The position numbers were made by a program, and so were the translations under genes. DNA of 64,000 nucleotides, taken from the NCBI RefSeq assembly GCF_009914755.1, contig NC_060932.1; one strand, given 5' to 3'. This document shows positions 1,677-33,253 of the stretch, one piece after another. The notes under the pieces were generated by a model. The model saw only the letters and a list, made by a program, of their open reading frames with translations, was not told the origin of the DNA and made no database searches. The stretch is from the human T2T-CHM13v2.0 reference genome, Homo sapiens. Within the stretch, counting starts at the first letter, position 1, and every line of letters begins with the position of its first letter.

Positions 1677-24481
<22,805 letters not shown>

Positions 24482-28639: not shown

Positions 28640-29440
28640 TGACAAAGCTACGACGCGGACGGGCAGCAGAAAACGGAAAATTAAAAGAATGAGAGAAAAA
28701 GTAAAGGAGAAAAGAGAAACAAAGTAGATGTAGAAACTCCAAGGGGAAGCAAAGAGAAAGTGTGGGCCGCATGACTCTCAGGTCCTCTGCATCTCACACG
28801 CTCAGCAGGGTTCGGGGGTGGAGGTCAGACTGTTTACCCCAATCCAGGGGCTCACAAGGGGCTGGCTGCCAAAATCCTTCTTTGGCTGTAACCAGATCCT
28901 CCCCTGTCACGAAAGCCCCCGCAGAGGCCTCGGCTCCGGGCTCGGCCCCCGCCAGGGCTCGCAAAAAAAAAGCTCCTCTTACCAGAGTCTCACCGCCTGG
29001 AAGGAAAGGTCGGAGGTGAAAATAAGTCGTGGCCAAGTACCTCTTCAAAATTGGTCCCGAGCGGCCCCCAGCGAGACCCTGCAGCTGCCTCTAGCACCAA
29101 CACATACGCCCGGCAGCTGCCGTTGCAATTCGAACCCTCCTGGCTTTCAAAAAGTCGCGCGCTGCGCCAGCTTCGGCCCCGAGCTACGGGGCGGCGTGAA
29201 GGACACGCCCCGCCGATTCGCCGTTCCTCCTCCCTCTCCCAGGACTCCCGGTGCCCGCAGGCGCCAAAGACGAGGGAAGGAAGGAAAGGCGCGGGGAGCA
29301 CAAACTTTTACAGGAACCACCAGCCCTTCCGAGGAGCACAGCCCGGTGAATAGAACACAGTTGCCTGTGCTGAAGGCTGAAGCTCTCTCCAAACGCTCAC
29401 ATCTGTGTTGAATGTGTCGTGATTATGACGTCAATTTTAT
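28640..29440 (-). promoter_or_regulatory. PBK CpG-island cell-cycle promoter
   Basis: CpG-rich. CHR TTTGAA at 29146-29151 with a CDE-like GCGCG 4 nt upstream; second TTTGAA at 29044-29049; CCAAT at 29050-29054; GC boxes at 29188-29194 and 29208-29214; E2F TTTGGCGC at 29261-29268; palindromic CRE TGACGTCA at 29426-29433. Confidence 0.85.
28983..29165 (-). other. PBK: PBK non-coding exon 1 (TSS approximate)
   Basis: In the CpG island; donor CTG/gtaaga at 28983/28982; alternative donors at 28994 and 29041. Confidence 0.7.
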
Positions 29441-29600
29441 TATAGGTTTATGAGGCCTTGAAACACTGTAAAGACAAATGCGTAGCTTAAGGAACAATCA
29501 TCTTTAGCCGAGGGAAAAAAAAGATATTTAGAAATGTTGCTAACTCATGTAATTGCCACATTCAATTCAACATTCTTTAATTTATTCAACGATTATTTAG

Positions 29601-29798
<198 letters not shown>

Positions 29799-30162
29799 TG
29801 ATCAGGGCTTCTCCCCAGGAAGATGTGCCCTGAGGCATCCCCCGAGGATGGCGCAGGTCCTGAGGGTCGTGGGGATCAAAGAATATGAGCCAAGACGTAT
29901 AAATCACATGTTGGAGTTTGCCTTCCCCTATGTGACCACAGTTCTGGATGATGCAAAAATTTACTCAAGCCATGCTAAGAAAGCTACTGGTGTGCAATTG
30001 CAATCCAGTGTGCGCCGACCAGTTTTTTTTTACCTCTCCGCCCCAAGAGATTTTTATTAGATATTGCAAGGCAAAGAAATCAAACCCCTTCGCCTTTGAT
30101 CAAGCCGTATTCAAGTCCTAGAATGCCACCCAATAGATATTGCTTAACAGCTCCAAACTATA

Positions 30163-30799
30163 TGTTGCAGGGAAAACCCCAAAACTAGGGTACAGCCACA
30201 GAGGCCACCTGGCTTGGAGCAGGAAGGAATTCGAGAGCAGCCCCATAGAGTAAAATGAGAGCAAGTTTATTAAGAAAGTAAAGGAATAAGAGTGGCTACT
30301 CCACAGGCAGAGCAGCCTGGAGGGCTGCAGATGGGCTATTTTTACCGTTATTTCTTGATCATATGCTAGATAGAGGATGGATTATTCATGAGTTTTACAA
30401 GAAGGCCCTGGGGATTTTCTGGAACTGAGGGTTCCTCCTCCTTTTAGACCATGTAGGGTAATAAGTTCCCCGGGTTGCCATAGCATTTGTAAACCGTCAT
30501 GGCACTCAGGGGGAGTGTCTTTCGGCAGCTAAATCATTATAATTAGCCTGTAATGAGCAGTGAGGATGACCAGAGGTCATCCACTAGTGGATTTCAGTCT
30601 CAATCTTGATCCGGGTTCTTTGCCTGGAGTGGTTTTTCCAACCCTGGTGTGCCAGGAAAGGGAACGCTGAGTGGCCCCCTATGGGGTGCCCTCTTGGTTT
30701 TGGTGGGTTTGGGCCACCCTCTTTACTGCATCTGTTTTATCAGTGGGGGTCTTTGTGACCTCTATCTTGTGAAATCAGTCCTGCCAAACTTCTGTCTCA
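30163..30799 (-). mobile_element. MER41-family (ERV1) solo LTR inserted in the TAF9 pseudogene
   Basis: TG...CA ends; imperfect 4-bp TSD (TATA/TACA); matches recalled MER41 blocks such as GGCTGCTCTGCCT.TGGAGTAGCCA...CTTTACTTTCTTAATAAACTTGCT. Confidence 0.85.
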
Positions 30800-30864
30800 T
30801 ACATACAGGCTTAAGTCTTTACAGAAAAAGGCATCTACGTCTGAGGGAAGAATAACAGTCCCCA

Positions 30865-31423
30865 TGATATCAGTGGGCCAGGGGAGGTCCTCAAATGCCG
30901 GTGGGTCCTGGACCCCCGCAGGTGTCCAGACTCTTGACACCGTCTTGAGAATGGATTCAAGGATGAGTTGGAAAATAGTGAAAGTATGGAGATTTGTTGC
31001 AAAGGGAAAAAGTACACACTTAAGAAAGGGGATTGCGGGCGTACTCAAGAGAGTCACACAGTGGGGTGTGCGGTTTCTCTCTGTATGGGTTTCTTCAACC
31101 AAGGGGTGGAATATTTATGACAATTCTTGGAAAAAGATGGAGATTTCTTGGAACTGTGGTGCCACTCGTTTTTACACCAAATATGGGTGTTCCCAGAACT
31201 GTCATTGCGCTGGTGGGTGTGATTTAGTGTGTTAATGAGCATATAATGAGGTCCTAGGTGAAACCTAGGTCAAATCCAGCACCACTTTGGGTCTAGTTGG
31301 TCTTAGCCAGCTTGGTGCACACCCTGTTTTTCAGGGGTTCATCAGCCCATAACCCCTACTCATGGGAAACTGCTGTCTGGAGTTTTTATTCTCCTGTGAA
31401 CACCCTGCATTATTTCTGTCTCA
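30865..31423 (-). mobile_element. Second ERV1 solo LTR (MER41D/E-like) inserted in the TAF9 pseudogene
   Basis: TG...CA ends; exact 4-bp TSD CCCA (30861-30864 / 31424-31427); MER41-like core CACCCACCAGCGCAATGACAGTT...ATTCCACCCCTTG; TAF9 homology resumes afterwards. Confidence 0.8.
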
Positions 31424-32169
31424 CCCAGATTAAATGTTGGTTCAGTTACTAGCCGACCAGGTGTTCACACACTAGGCACACCACCCCCCAAACCATGTTT
31501 GTGGCAACTAAAGTAAGGACTCAAATGTCCCTCACAAGGCAAAGGTTTACAGTGTAGATGTCTGCTTCACATTGCCCTGTGAAGCGTGAATTCCTGTAAC
31601 ATCAGCAATTCAGAATGTTCTGGTTAATCCATCACGAATGGTCCAGAGGCATTCTTATTACACTAATATGGTGTCATCACAAACTACTGCCAATGGAAAA
31701 AAAAACATGAAGAAGATGATAATGATGATGATGAGGACGATAATTTGTAATCTAGCTTTGATGTATGTAACATGTATACTTGACCTTGAATTCACTGTAC
31801 TGAAATTAATCATGCATGCTGGATGCTTTCAAGTTGTGTTTTAGAAAACTTAAATAATATTTCATGAGTATACTCTATTTTCAATTGAAATATTAGATTT
31901 TCTTTAATAGGATAAGTAATGGTTTTTCATCAGCTTTTAAGTGTAAAATAATAAAGTTGTCCTTCATCAATTAAAAAAAAACACATTTATAGAGCACCTA
32001 CTTCTACCCTTCAAAGTCCAATCTTTCAGCATCCCTAAGCTTCCTTAGCCCGTCTCAGGAGGAGGCAGGGGATGGGGGCTAAGGAAACTTAACCAAATCA
32101 CTCCTCCTCTCCTAAGTCTTTACCTTCACCCCCTTTAATAGTCATTTTTCTTCCAAATCAAACAATAAC

Positions 32170-32372
32170 AATAATAGCAAATACTTATTTAGTATTTATT
32201 GTATGTCAGGTCTTGTTTCATGTATTAGCTCATTTAATCTTCATAACTCTATGATGTAGGTTACTATGATTATAAACTCCATTTTTCAAATGAGGAAACT
32301 GAGGCACAGAAATGTTAAGTAATTTGCCTAAAGTCACAGGATTTAACAATTGGTAGAGCCGCAATTCGAAAC
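32170..32372 (-). mobile_element. MIR
   Basis: Core ATGAGGAAACTGAGGCACAGA..GTTAAGTAATTTGCCTAAAGTCACA; other MIRs at ~2755-2900, ~48340-48560 and ~52985-53105. Confidence 0.75.
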
Positions 32373-33253
32373 CATGTTGCCCTTAGACTTCCTCTTTAAC
32401 AAATGTGCTTAAAATCTCTTCCACATTACACATGTGTGCACACACACGCACACCCCTCCACCTCTGGGGCCTTTCCATTTTTGGTCACCCTCTTTCAAGC
32501 ATAGAAGCACAGTGTCTCACCTCTCTCTCTCTCAACTCTCATTCTAATTTTCTTCTGCAGGCATTATATTATAGACCTCACCACCTTTTCTTTAAAGATC
32601 TATAGTGTTCTATACTTTTTATGAAGTCCTACATTTTTACAAGCCTATTTTCTACTCTTACTGGCTAATAAAATCCTGCCTAAAGCCAGAGCCTGAAAGC
32701 TTCATAATTAACCATTGCTAGTGAAAAGAAACTCCAGGGAGATGAGGTTATCGATGCAGGTATAAGATGAGGCCAAAAGCATGCATGAGAGAGAAGGCAC
32801 TGGTGTAAAGCCTTACTCATAACCATCCTGTTCCCCATCTTCTAATCATAAAACTGCCTCCAGAGATTAGCCACAGAAACATCTGAACTTCACAAGTGCA
32901 GTGTTATCATTTGTGAAATGCAACCATGAACTCAAAATCTTGCATACTAGTCAGTTGTCATGGAAAATAGCTTGCAACCTAGATCATTATTTATTTCAGT
33001 GTATAAATGGCCTGGTTTCCTTGGTTTAGCAAAAGAGCCCACAATTCTGACTCTTGGCTGCCTGAGCCCAAAGAAACATCGGCACTGTCATCTTTTTACG
33101 GCATAAACTCTAACTTCTGGTCCATGCAGGACCTCACCTTTTGATTTTCAAGGGCCTAGTTTGAAAATGAAAAAGAAAATTAACTTTTTTTCTCTCTTTT
33201 TTACTGCTATTGCATTTTAATTCTCTTTGAAGCTAGGTAAATGCTGCCAATTG

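What the first reader, a model, noticed from the sequence alone, without database searches (positions are those of the whole stretch)
31124..31198. Three perfect STAT (GAS) sites, two in tandem, carried by an LTR about 2 kb upstream of PBK/TOPK
Seen: TTCTTGGAA at 31124-31132 and again at 31145-31153 (12-nt spacer), and TTCCCAGAA at 31190-31198, all inside the LTR at 30865-31423. Known: TTCN3GAA is the STAT1/3/5 site; TTCTTGGAA is a classic STAT5 element; paired sites about one helical turn apart support STAT tetramers; MER41 LTRs act as STAT1 enhancers elsewhere; TOPK was named from lymphokine-activated killer T cells. Inference: this may be a primate-specific, LTR-donated cytokine (IL-2/STAT5 or IFN/STAT1) input added to an otherwise E2F/CHR cell-cycle promoter.
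Basis: partly seen in the sequence, partly recalled or inferred. Interest (0 to 1): 0.7.

Follow-up and report, generated by a model that had tools for sequence, protein, structure and literature searches.

The report
MER41-type LTR carrying STAT sites
A roughly 50-million-year-old retroviral remnant two kilobases upstream of the cell-division kinase gene PBK still carries three STAT-protein binding sites inherited from the virus; this is a known kind of element that may, but is not shown to, pass cytokine signals to PBK.

Summary
TTCTTGGAA sits at 31124-31132 and 31145-31153 with a 12-nt spacer, and TTCCCAGAA at 31190-31198. All three lie inside a solo LTR at 30865-31423 that is bounded by a perfect 4-bp target-site duplication.

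- **Origin of the sites:** they are family features, not chance. Of 39 genomic copies, 21, 31 and 17 keep a perfect site at the three positions.
- **Homology:** the tandem pair aligns in register with the pair in the AIM2 enhancer LTR.
- **Family:** a published promoter list used as an anchor (GCSH) and published genome coverage point to MER41E. A second solo LTR, probably MER41B, lies 65 bp to the left at 30163-30799, and its pair has decayed.
- **Setting:** both LTRs were inserted into a TAF9 processed pseudogene. Both are sense on the minus strand, the same direction as PBK.
- **Age:** divergence gives about 47-52 My, which fits published simian-ancestor dates.
- **Function:** this is only indirectly supported. 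A 2022 preprint reports a STAT5 CUT&RUN peak near the PBK start site in K562 cells, holding a pair of sites 12 bp apart. Between the neighbouring genes' start sites only two such pairs exist, this one and one 119.5 kb away.

Verdict: a real element of a known kind and a new member of it. An effect on PBK is plausible but unproven.

The parts
30865..31423 (-). Solo LTR (559 bp) of the MER41 group, probably MER41E. It is sense on the minus strand, the same direction as PBK.
   Evidence: There are 281 first-look candidates in the genome; 40 were scored, at 77-82% identity. The ends are TG...CA with a 4-bp duplication. Naming rests on the GCSH anchor plus published coverage. Orientation rests on poly(A)-signal counts (30 of 39 copies on the minus strand, 0 of 39 on the plus strand) and on the sense-only rule of the published list.
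31124..31132 (.). STAT (GAS) site 1, TTCTTGGAA; left half of the tandem pair.
   Evidence: A perfect TTCN3GAA is found at these columns in 21 of 39 copies.
31145..31153 (.). STAT (GAS) site 2, TTCTTGGAA; right half of the tandem pair (12-nt spacer, 21 bp centre to centre).
   Evidence: It is perfect in 31 of 39 copies. The pair is perfect in 17 of 39 copies and its 30-nt length is kept in 31 of 39. It aligns in register with the pair in the AIM2-locus LTR.
31190..31198 (.). STAT (GAS) site 3, TTCCCAGAA.
   Evidence: It is perfect in 17 of 39 copies.
30861..30864 (.). Left copy of the 4-bp target-site duplication (CCCA) of the 30865-31423 LTR.
   Evidence: Junction view against the TAF9 parent gene.
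31424..31427 (.). Right copy of the 4-bp target-site duplication (CCCA).
30163..30799 (-). Second solo LTR, probably MER41B, in the same orientation. Each half of its tandem pair departs from the motif by one core base. It carries a 107-nt foreign insert at 30580-30686.
   Evidence: There are 2432 first-look candidates; 40 were scored, at 75-82% identity. The flanking duplication is TATA/TACA. Among 20 copies, 7 have a perfect 21-bp pair, 19 have at least one perfect site, and none has the insert. GCSH anchor.
30577..30653 (-). Inverted copy of a TAF9 exon piece lying inside the second LTR. It is the same piece as 29702-29782.
   Evidence: It is 78.8% identical to the TAF9 gene in reverse orientation. 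There are only 5 genome matches. Three-way alignment.
29702..31967 (+). TAF9 processed pseudogene (host), split by the two LTRs into pieces 29702-29782, 29844-30162, 30804-30862 and 31430-31967. RefSeq gives 29829-31744.
   Evidence: BLAST to the TAF9 gene (L002): 87.7%, 84.2%, 89.8% and 78.0%, colinear.
28983..29148 (-). PBK exon 1, with the start site at 29148. CHR-type TTYGAA motifs on the PBK strand lie at 29146-29151, 29129-29134 and 29044-29049.
   Evidence: Gene table supplied with the finding.
29258..29437 (.). The only RefSeq functional-element rows between PBK and 33 kb: two 'enhancer' rows at 29258-29317 and 29388-29437. Neither is on an LTR.

Best explanation
**Shown**
- 30865-31423 is a solo LTR of a MER41-group, gammaretrovirus-like endogenous retrovirus.
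- It was inserted, with a 4-bp duplication, into a TAF9 processed pseudogene 1.7-2.3 kb upstream of PBK.
- Its three STAT sites are inherited family features.

**Inferred from print and counts**
- The subfamily is MER41E.
- The LTR is sense on the minus strand.
- In that reading the three sites lie in U3, a few tens of bases upstream of the family's TATA-like box. They were therefore the virus's own STAT-responsive promoter module.
- This copy keeps neither of the family's two core signals (the TATA-like and poly(A) hexamers). It is unlikely to act as a promoter and can act only as a binding platform.

**Inferred function**
- In cells with active STAT5, and possibly STAT1 or STAT3, the intact 12-nt-spaced pair plus the third site recruit STAT dimers or tetramers.
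- The LTR then works as a conditional upstream enhancer that adds a modest cytokine input to PBK's cell-cycle (CHR/DREAM) promoter.
For: **Element and bounds**
- Genomic copies at 77-82% identity, the target-site duplication and colinear pseudogene flanks.

**Inherited sites**
- 21, 31 and 17 of 39 copies keep perfect sites, and 17 of 39 keep the perfect pair.
- The site-bearing stretch is the only part that still aligns between this LTR and its neighbour (63% over 111 nt).
- It aligns in register with the pair in the AIM2-locus LTR (63% over 262 nt). That LTR is the published interferon-induced AIM2 enhancer, now called ERV-Saru.

**Family name**
- Schmid and Bucher's Table 2 marks MER41B (1069 kb of genome) and MER41E (135 kb) as consensus sequences with a 21-bp tandem pair. 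It also shows IFN-gamma-induced STAT1 tags on both.
- The GCSH promoter is listed as holding 'MER41B; MER41E' within 2 kb, sense to the gene.
- There I find exactly one element of each of my two families.
- The family sizes, 281 against 2432 first-look candidates, decide which is which.

**Orientation**
-.

**Occupancy**
- The preprint 10.1101/2022.06.10.494364 reports a K562 STAT5 CUT&RUN peak linked to PBK, at a locus 'near' the start site. The peak holds a pair of sites 12 bp apart, lies near an active histone mark and is lost in ACK-knockout cells, where PBK mRNA and protein fall.
- Between the ESCO2 and SCARA5 start sites only two perfect pairs of that spacing exist: this one, 2.0 kb from the start site, and one 119.5 kb away.
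- A table in PMC6473030 lists STAT1 and STAT3 among factors with demonstrated sites in MER41E LTRs.
Against: - I could not see the preprint's Figure 5A or Table 1, so the PBK peak may be the other pair or a site I did not consider.
- Its gene assignment used GREAT, which reaches far from a gene.
- The fall of PBK in the knockout cells may simply follow their slower growth, because PBK is a DREAM-repressed cell-cycle gene.
- RefSeq lists no functional element on the LTR.
- Keeping all three sites needs no selection, since 8 of 39 copies do so.
- The 18 defining columns match the window in 0.915 of copies against 0.763 overall. That is about what neutral decay gives for columns where the window itself is unmutated, so it is not evidence of constraint.
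- The subfamily name rests on one positional anchor and on coverage figures, not on a Dfam or RepeatMasker match.
Confidence: 0.45

Rival explanations
1. Inert relic. The LTR is what is described above, but its STAT sites are leftovers that decay neutrally. They are not occupied to any meaningful degree at this locus, and PBK is driven by its cell-cycle promoter alone.
For: - Eight of 39 copies keep all three sites and 17 of 39 keep the pair, so intact sites are common in the family.
- There is no excess conservation once ascertainment is allowed for.
- RefSeq has no functional-element row on the LTR.
- Only a small subset of potential STAT1 sites is occupied genome-wide (abstract).
- PBK is in the DREAM/RB-repressed set, with CHR motifs at its start site.
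- No paper in the library links MER41 with the gene PBK.
Against: - The preprint reports a STAT5 peak with a 12-bp-spaced pair near the PBK start site.
- This LTR holds the only such pair within 119 kb of that start site.
- As a class, MER41E shows IFN-gamma-induced STAT1 tags (ln ratio 1.65).
Confidence: 0.4
2. LTR as promoter. Being sense to PBK, the LTR (or its neighbour) starts STAT-driven transcripts that run toward PBK. These could be an alternative PBK 5' exon or a non-coding RNA that interferes with the promoter.
For: - Both LTRs are sense on the PBK strand.
- The STAT sites lie just upstream of the family's TATA-like box.
Against: - This copy keeps neither the TATA-like hexamer (kept by 24 of 39 copies) nor the poly(A) hexamer (kept by 30 of 39).
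- RefSeq lists no transcript or exon between 29148 and 61213 (and the gene table).
- The neighbouring LTR still has a poly(A) signal on that strand, which would end such transcripts before PBK.
Confidence: 0.05
3. Chance motif cluster. The three sites arose by chance in unique DNA and have nothing to do with a repeat.
For: The window as a whole has no excess of the motif (24 against 24.52 expected).
Against: - The sites are shared, column for column, with dozens of genomic copies.
- The cluster occurs in only 10 of 1000 shuffles.
Confidence: 0.01

Closest known systems
MER41E LTRs (Repbase/Dfam name; IFN-gamma-induced STAT1 binding reported by Schmid and Bucher 2010, PMC2897888)
   Same: - A tandem pair 21 bp centre to centre as a family feature.
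- Small family size: 135 kb of genome in print against 281 first-look candidates here.
- A 4-bp duplication, as printed for ERV-MER41E and all other group I types in Frith's table.
- One element of this family lies where print places a MER41E in the GCSH promoter.
   Different: I could show no difference, but there was no direct match to the Dfam or Repbase model. MER41G, MER41D or MER41C are not formally excluded.
The AIM2 enhancer LTR ('MER41.AIM2' of Chuong et al. 2016, reclassified as ERV-Saru by Frith 2025, PMC11905727)
   Same: - A solo LTR upstream of the gene in the same direction as the gene.
- A tandem pair with a 12-nt spacer that aligns in register with the pair here.
- Group I with a 4-bp duplication.
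   Different: - It is a different LTR type: only 63% identity over 262 nt, 636 bp long, about 14 copies.
- It lies 220 bp from its gene against 2 kb here.
- It has been shown by deletion to be needed for interferon induction of an immune gene. Here the neighbour is a cell-cycle kinase and no such evidence exists.
MER41B LTRs, the main STAT1-bound repeat class
   Same: The same tandem architecture. The neighbouring LTR at 30163-30799 appears to be one.
   Different: The finding's LTR aligns to that neighbour only over the 111-nt site-bearing stretch. The neighbour's own pair has decayed.
Cellular STAT5 tetramer sites with 11-12-nt spacers (the '12 bp optimal' figure is cited in the preprint from Sathyanarayana et al. 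2016; I did not see that paper)
   Same: Two TTCN3GAA sites with a 12-nt spacer. All three sites also fit TTCYNRGAA, a STAT5 preference I recall rather than took from a call.
   Different: The origin is retroviral, and cooperative binding has not been tested.
STAT5 binding at the mouse Pbk promoter (Cao et al. 2021, cited in the preprint; not seen)
   Same: The same gene and the same factor.
   Different: Mouse lacks MER41 according to print, so any mouse site is independent. The human stretch from the PBK start site to the LTR (29149-31123) has no perfect TTCN3GAA.

Membership tests
MER41-group ERV1 LTR (subfamily MER41E) | Interspersed repeat with LTR ends (TG...CA) and the 4-bp target duplication of group I ERVs | tested here: met
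   Frith's table gives a 4-bp duplication for all group I types listed.
MER41-group ERV1 LTR (subfamily MER41E) | Sequence match to an element that print names MER41E | tested here: met
   GCSH is listed with 'MER41B; MER41E' within 2 kb, sense to the gene. The finding's LTR matches L079 836-1314 at 73.5% over 419 nt and 75.9% over 58 nt, and its neighbour matches L079 1762-2177. Which element is which is inferred from family size.
MER41-group ERV1 LTR (subfamily MER41E) | Tandem STAT sites 21 bp centre to centre in the family | tested here: met
   The pair is perfect in 17 of 39 copies and its spacing is kept in 31 of 39. Print.
MER41-group ERV1 LTR (subfamily MER41E) | Best match to the Dfam or Repbase MER41E model rather than C, D or G | not testable with these tools
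   No repeat library is on hand. RefSeq's mask rows carry no names and do not cover the LTR.
MER41-group ERV1 LTR (subfamily MER41E) | Simian-restricted distribution, with this insertion shared by simians | not testable with these tools
   No other primate genome is available. Print says all MER41 subtypes entered in a simian ancestor. Divergence-based age is about 47-52 My.
STAT-responsive LTR enhancer (of the AIM2-enhancer kind) | Intact STAT sites homologous to those of the proven enhancer | tested here: met
STAT-responsive LTR enhancer (of the AIM2-enhancer kind) | Stimulus-dependent STAT occupancy and active chromatin at this copy | tested here: inconclusive
   The preprint text fits, but its coordinates were not visible. 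RefSeq has no functional-element row here.
STAT-responsive LTR enhancer (of the AIM2-enhancer kind) | The neighbouring gene's induction depends on the element | not testable with these tools
   No data. In the preprint, PBK falls together with lost STAT5 binding, but also with slower growth.
STAT5 tetramer site | Two STAT sites with an 11-12-nt spacer | tested here: met
   The '12 bp optimal' figure comes from the preprint.
STAT5 tetramer site | Cooperative binding that depends on the STAT N-terminal domain | not testable with these tools
   This needs binding data.
LTR-derived alternative promoter | Sense orientation to the gene, with core promoter and poly(A) signals kept and transcripts starting in the LTR | tested here: not met
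   Orientation is met. Both core signals are absent in this copy although most copies keep them (24 of 39 and 30 of 39). No RefSeq transcript starts there.

The most novel reading that the evidence does not exclude
The STAT5 input to human PBK/TOPK is physically supplied by this MER41E LTR. On that reading, the cytokine-linked expression that gave TOPK its name rests on a simian-specific retroviral module, while mouse reaches the same wiring through an unrelated promoter site. More widely, a large share of the 'optimal 12-bp' STAT5 tetramer sites seen in human cells would be MER41-group relics. Genome-wide there are 1343 perfect 12-nt-spaced pairs against 573 for the reversed control pattern. 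By eye, about 23 of the first 50 listed have spacers like those of the three LTR types studied here.
Probability: 0.25. Interest if true: 0.55.

Novelty: new member of a known kind. Interest (0 to 1): 0.35.

Why it matters
MER41-group LTRs are the standard example of retroviral remnants rewiring interferon and STAT responses in primates. The known cases sit next to immune genes. Here the same module sits next to a mitotic kinase that is a cancer drug target. A preprint that reports STAT5 control of PBK never mentions that the site could be retroviral. If the link holds, two things would follow: human and mouse PBK would differ in how cytokines reach the gene, and human STAT5 'tetramer site' catalogues should be read with repeats in mind, as Schmid and Bucher warned for STAT1. 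If it does not hold, this is one more decaying MER41 copy.

Tried and rejected
1. **Naming through the AIM2 enhancer.**
   - The first 10 kb fetched (L001) gave no match.
   - The next 10 kb (L003) gave only a 63% match over 262 nt.
   - Frith 2025 explains why: that LTR is ERV-Saru, not MER41B.
   - So AIM2 shows homology of the tandem pair but cannot name the subfamily.
2. **Chuong et al. 2016.** It is not held under either id I tried (the PMC id was recalled). What I say of it comes from a review and other papers that cite it.
3. **Copy counts as family size.** The first-look candidate numbers (281, 2432 and 30) are lower bounds and depend on word frequency. I use them only to rank the two families.
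4. **Extra conservation of the STAT sites.** The share of 0.915 against 0.763, reached by 4 of 10000 random column sets, looked like constraint. I rejected it because the columns were chosen where the window is unmutated.
5. **A plus-strand reading of the LTR.** There is a TATAA on the plus strand in 26 of 39 copies. I rejected this reading because no copy (0 of 39) has a plus-strand poly(A) signal downstream, 30 of 39 have one on the minus strand, and the GCSH anchor is sense to a minus-strand gene.
6. **A second LTR-derived site among the preprint's five targets.** A Saru-like fragment 8.5 kb inside SP100 has no perfect site, so I dropped the lead.
7. **Rfam.** Over 29400-32100 there are three weak matches, all far below their gathering scores. 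Nothing came of it.
8. **Literature.**
   - 'MER41' with 'PBK' found one paper, whose 'pbk' is the R package pbkrtest.
   - 'PBK, STAT5, ChIP-seq, IL-2' found only the preprint.
   - 'PBK, STAT5, tetramer' added nothing usable.
   - Cao et al. 2021 was not found.
9. **Supplements.** They are closed. Supplementary Table 2 of PMC6473030 (79 genes with a sense MER41 LTR within 2 kb) and Supplementary Table 2 of the preprint may settle the name and the peak position.
Full report
**Observation.** The window reads TTCTTGGAA at 31124-31132 and at 31145-31153, with a 12-nt spacer, and TTCCCAGAA at 31190-31198.
- The window as a whole has no excess of TTCN3GAA: 24 sites against 24.52 expected, and 56 of 100 shuffles reach 24.
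- The cluster is locally unusual. At least one triple within 75 bp appears in 10 of 1000 dinucleotide-preserving shuffles, and at least one pair with a 12-nt spacer in 8 of 1000.
- In the 224 kb between the ESCO2 and SCARA5 start sites there are 61 sites, this single triple and two perfect 12-nt-spaced pairs.

**The element is real and its bounds are exact.** A search of the reference with 30865-31423 gave 281 first-look candidates. Forty were scored, at 77-82% identity, and 9 of the 39 other long matches span bases 1-559. BLAST against the TAF9 gene (L002) shows that the flanks are pieces of one processed pseudogene. The pieces 29702-29782, 29844-30162, 30804-30862 and 31430-31967 match at 87.7, 84.2, 89.8 and 78.0% and are colinear with the parent. 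The junction view shows TG...CA ends and a perfect 4-bp duplication, CCCA, at 30861-30864 and 31424-31427. This is a solo LTR inserted into an older retrocopy.

**A second LTR sits 65 bp to the left.** The stretch 30163-30799 is another solo LTR, from a much larger family (2432 first-look candidates; 40 scored at 75-82%). It is flanked by TATA/TACA.
- The two LTRs align with each other only over 31104-31208 against 30375-30484, at 63% over 111 nt. That is the stretch that bears the STAT sites.
- In 20 copies of the neighbour's family, 7 have a perfect 21-bp pair and 19 have at least one perfect site.
- The window copy has none, and each half departs from the motif by one core base.

**The sites came with the virus.** I fetched 39 copies as LTR-only stretches and aligned them.
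- A perfect TTCN3GAA occupies the columns of sites 1, 2 and 3 in 21, 31 and 17 of 39 copies.
- The pair is perfect in 17 of 39 copies, its 30-nt length is kept in 31 of 39, and all three sites are perfect in 8 of 39.
- Five of the 39 are near-identical chr1 duplicates. Without them the counts are 8 of 34 for all three sites and 17 of 34 for the pair.
- The middle three bases vary much more than the flanks. The share of copies equal to the window is 0.578 there, against 0.915 at the 18 defining columns and 0.763 overall.
- I do not read 0.915 as constraint. Those columns were picked where the window is unmutated, and about 0.89 is expected from neutral decay at the observed divergence.

**Homology with the known STAT-bound LTRs.** Reviews of Chuong et al. 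2016 place an LTR with a STAT1 motif 220 bp upstream of AIM2 and report that deleting the motif abolishes induction.
- In the reference, the only tandem pair in 20 kb of that locus lies in an LTR of about 640 bp (L003, about 6101-6744).
- The LTR has about a dozen long relatives. That fits Frith 2025, who reclassifies the AIM2 enhancer as ERV-Saru: 636 bp, about 14 copies, group I, a 4-bp duplication, simian.
- The finding's LTR aligns to it at 63% over 262 nt, and the two pairs are in register.

**Family name.** Schmid and Bucher 2010 list which repeat consensus sequences hold tandem STAT1 sites 21 bp apart: MER41B (1069 kb of genome) and MER41E (135 kb). Both show IFN-gamma-induced STAT1 tags, with ln ratios of 2.69 and 1.65.
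- A 2019 paper lists GCSH as having 'MER41B; MER41E' solo LTRs within 2 kb upstream, sense to the gene.
- In the 10 kb upstream of GCSH (L079; start site at position 500) the finding's LTR matches 836-1314 and its neighbour matches 1762-2177. Both matches lie within 2 kb of the start site.
- The small family is therefore MER41E and the large one MER41B.
- This rests on one positional anchor plus family size. No Dfam or RepeatMasker tool was on hand, so MER41G, D or C are not formally excluded. Naming did not need inner genes.

**Orientation.** The poly(A) hexamer lies on the minus strand about 130 nt from the left end in 30 of 39 copies, and 0 of 39 have one on the plus strand in the right-hand third. 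A CATAAA box on the minus strand lies between it and the STAT sites in 24 of 39 copies.
- The GCSH elements, which print says are sense to a minus-strand gene, align plus-to-plus with the window text.
- Both window LTRs are therefore sense on the minus strand, the same direction as PBK.
- The three sites lie in U3 just upstream of the family's core promoter.
- This copy has kept neither of the two core hexamers, so a promoter role is unlikely.

**Age.**
- Kimura two-parameter distance between the window LTR and the 39 copies averages 0.219 (range 0.162-0.264). Among the other copies it averages 0.231 over 741 pairs, including 10 pairs below 0.07 between the five chr1 duplicates.
- On a star tree that gives about 0.10-0.115 substitutions per site per lineage.
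- At a neutral rate of 2.2e-9 per site per year (a figure I recall, not from a call) the age is about 47-52 My.
- The neighbour gives 0.252 to its 20 copies and 0.216 among them, a similar age.
- Print gives 45-60 My, and entry in a simian ancestor after the split from other primates.
- Both LTRs must be younger than the TAF9 retrocopy they interrupt.
- The copies used are the best-scoring ones, which biases distances downward. Subfamily structure biases them upward.
- Orthology in other primates could not be tested.

**Does it act on PBK?**
- PBK is a cell-cycle gene. It is in a list of 268 p53-p21-DREAM/RB-repressed genes, and CHR-type TTYGAA motifs lie on its strand at 29146-29151, 29129-29134 and 29044-29049.
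- No perfect STAT site lies between the start site and the LTR.
- A 2022 preprint mapped STAT5 by CUT&RUN in K562 cells and validated PBK as one of five targets. STAT5 binding in a region linked to the gene was reduced or lost in ACK-knockout cells. The peak held a pair of sites 'spaced by the optimal 12bp' and lay near an active histone mark, and PBK mRNA and protein fell.
[quoted passage not shown] Genes were assigned with GREAT.
- The coordinates and motif letters are in an image and in supplements that I could not see.
- Only two perfect pairs of that spacing exist between the neighbouring start sites: this one, 2.0 kb away, and one at 119.5 kb. I therefore think it likely, though not shown, that the peak is on this LTR.
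- The preprint never mentions LTRs, retroviruses or transposable elements.

**Evidence against a role.**
- RefSeq lists only two small enhancer rows, at 29258-29317 and 29388-29437, and none on the LTRs.
- The fall of PBK in the knockout may follow slower growth.
- Most potential STAT sites in the genome are unoccupied (abstract).
- The preprint cites work saying STAT5 binds the mouse Pbk promoter (cited paper not seen). A STAT5 input to this gene is therefore not in itself a primate novelty.

**Verdict.** The element is a real solo LTR about 50 My old, of the MER41 group and probably MER41E. Its STAT sites are an inherited viral promoter module homologous to the one in published STAT-bound LTRs. 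That makes it a new member of a known kind. In the searched library, no paper links MER41 with the gene PBK, and none beyond the preprint combines PBK, STAT5, ChIP-seq and IL-2.

Noticed in passing
window 30163-30799: A second solo LTR, probably MER41B, lies 65 bp left of the finding's LTR in the same orientation and inside the same TAF9 pseudogene. Each half of its tandem STAT pair has lost one core base, while 7 of 20 family copies keep a perfect pair.
   Followed up: yes
window 30577-30653 (insert 30580-30686): Inside that second LTR lies a 107-nt insert found in none of 20 other copies. About 77 nt of it is an inverted copy of a TAF9 exon piece, the same piece the pseudogene carries in forward orientation at 29702-29782. 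It shares some differences with the parent gene and some with the pseudogene copy. The origin is unexplained and may be a local templated insertion.
   Followed up: partly
window 29702-31981: The TAF9 processed pseudogene reaches further than RefSeq's 29829-31744. Similarity to the parent runs from 29702 to 31967, and an AATAAA at 31950-31955 is followed by an A-run at 31973-31981.
   Followed up: partly
whole genome (G000): Perfect TTCN3GAA pairs with a 12-nt spacer number 1343 in the reference, against 573 for the reversed control pattern. By eye, about 23 of the first 50 places listed have spacers like those of the three LTR types studied here.
   Followed up: partly
L079 836-1314 and 1762-2177 (chr16, upstream of GCSH): GCSH has the same two LTR types within 2 kb of its start site, also sense to the gene. 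I did not work out how many such close pairs chance alone would give.
   Followed up: partly
L009, L017, L019, L028, L029 (chr1 at 146.4, 148.4, 16.7, 143.5 and 142.8 Mb): Five copies of the finding's LTR family are near-identical to one another (distance 0.011-0.066), so they are segmental-duplication copies rather than separate insertions. All five have lost sites 1 and 3.
   Followed up: no
L055 position 4621 (chr8:28234621, a SCARA5 intron, outside the window): This is the only other perfect 12-nt-spaced STAT pair between the ESCO2 and SCARA5 start sites. It lies 119.5 kb from the PBK start site, and its spacer does not look like a MER41 spacer.
   Followed up: no
window 29400-33200: RefSeq's masked-repeat rows (100 bp or more) cover neither LTR, although both belong to repeat families with hundreds to thousands of copies. 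That mask is therefore no guide to old LTRs here.
   Followed up: no
L080 (chr2:230907700-230908000, inside SP100): A fragment related to the AIM2-type LTR lies 8.5 kb inside SP100, another of the preprint's five STAT5 targets, but it has no perfect STAT site.
   Followed up: yes
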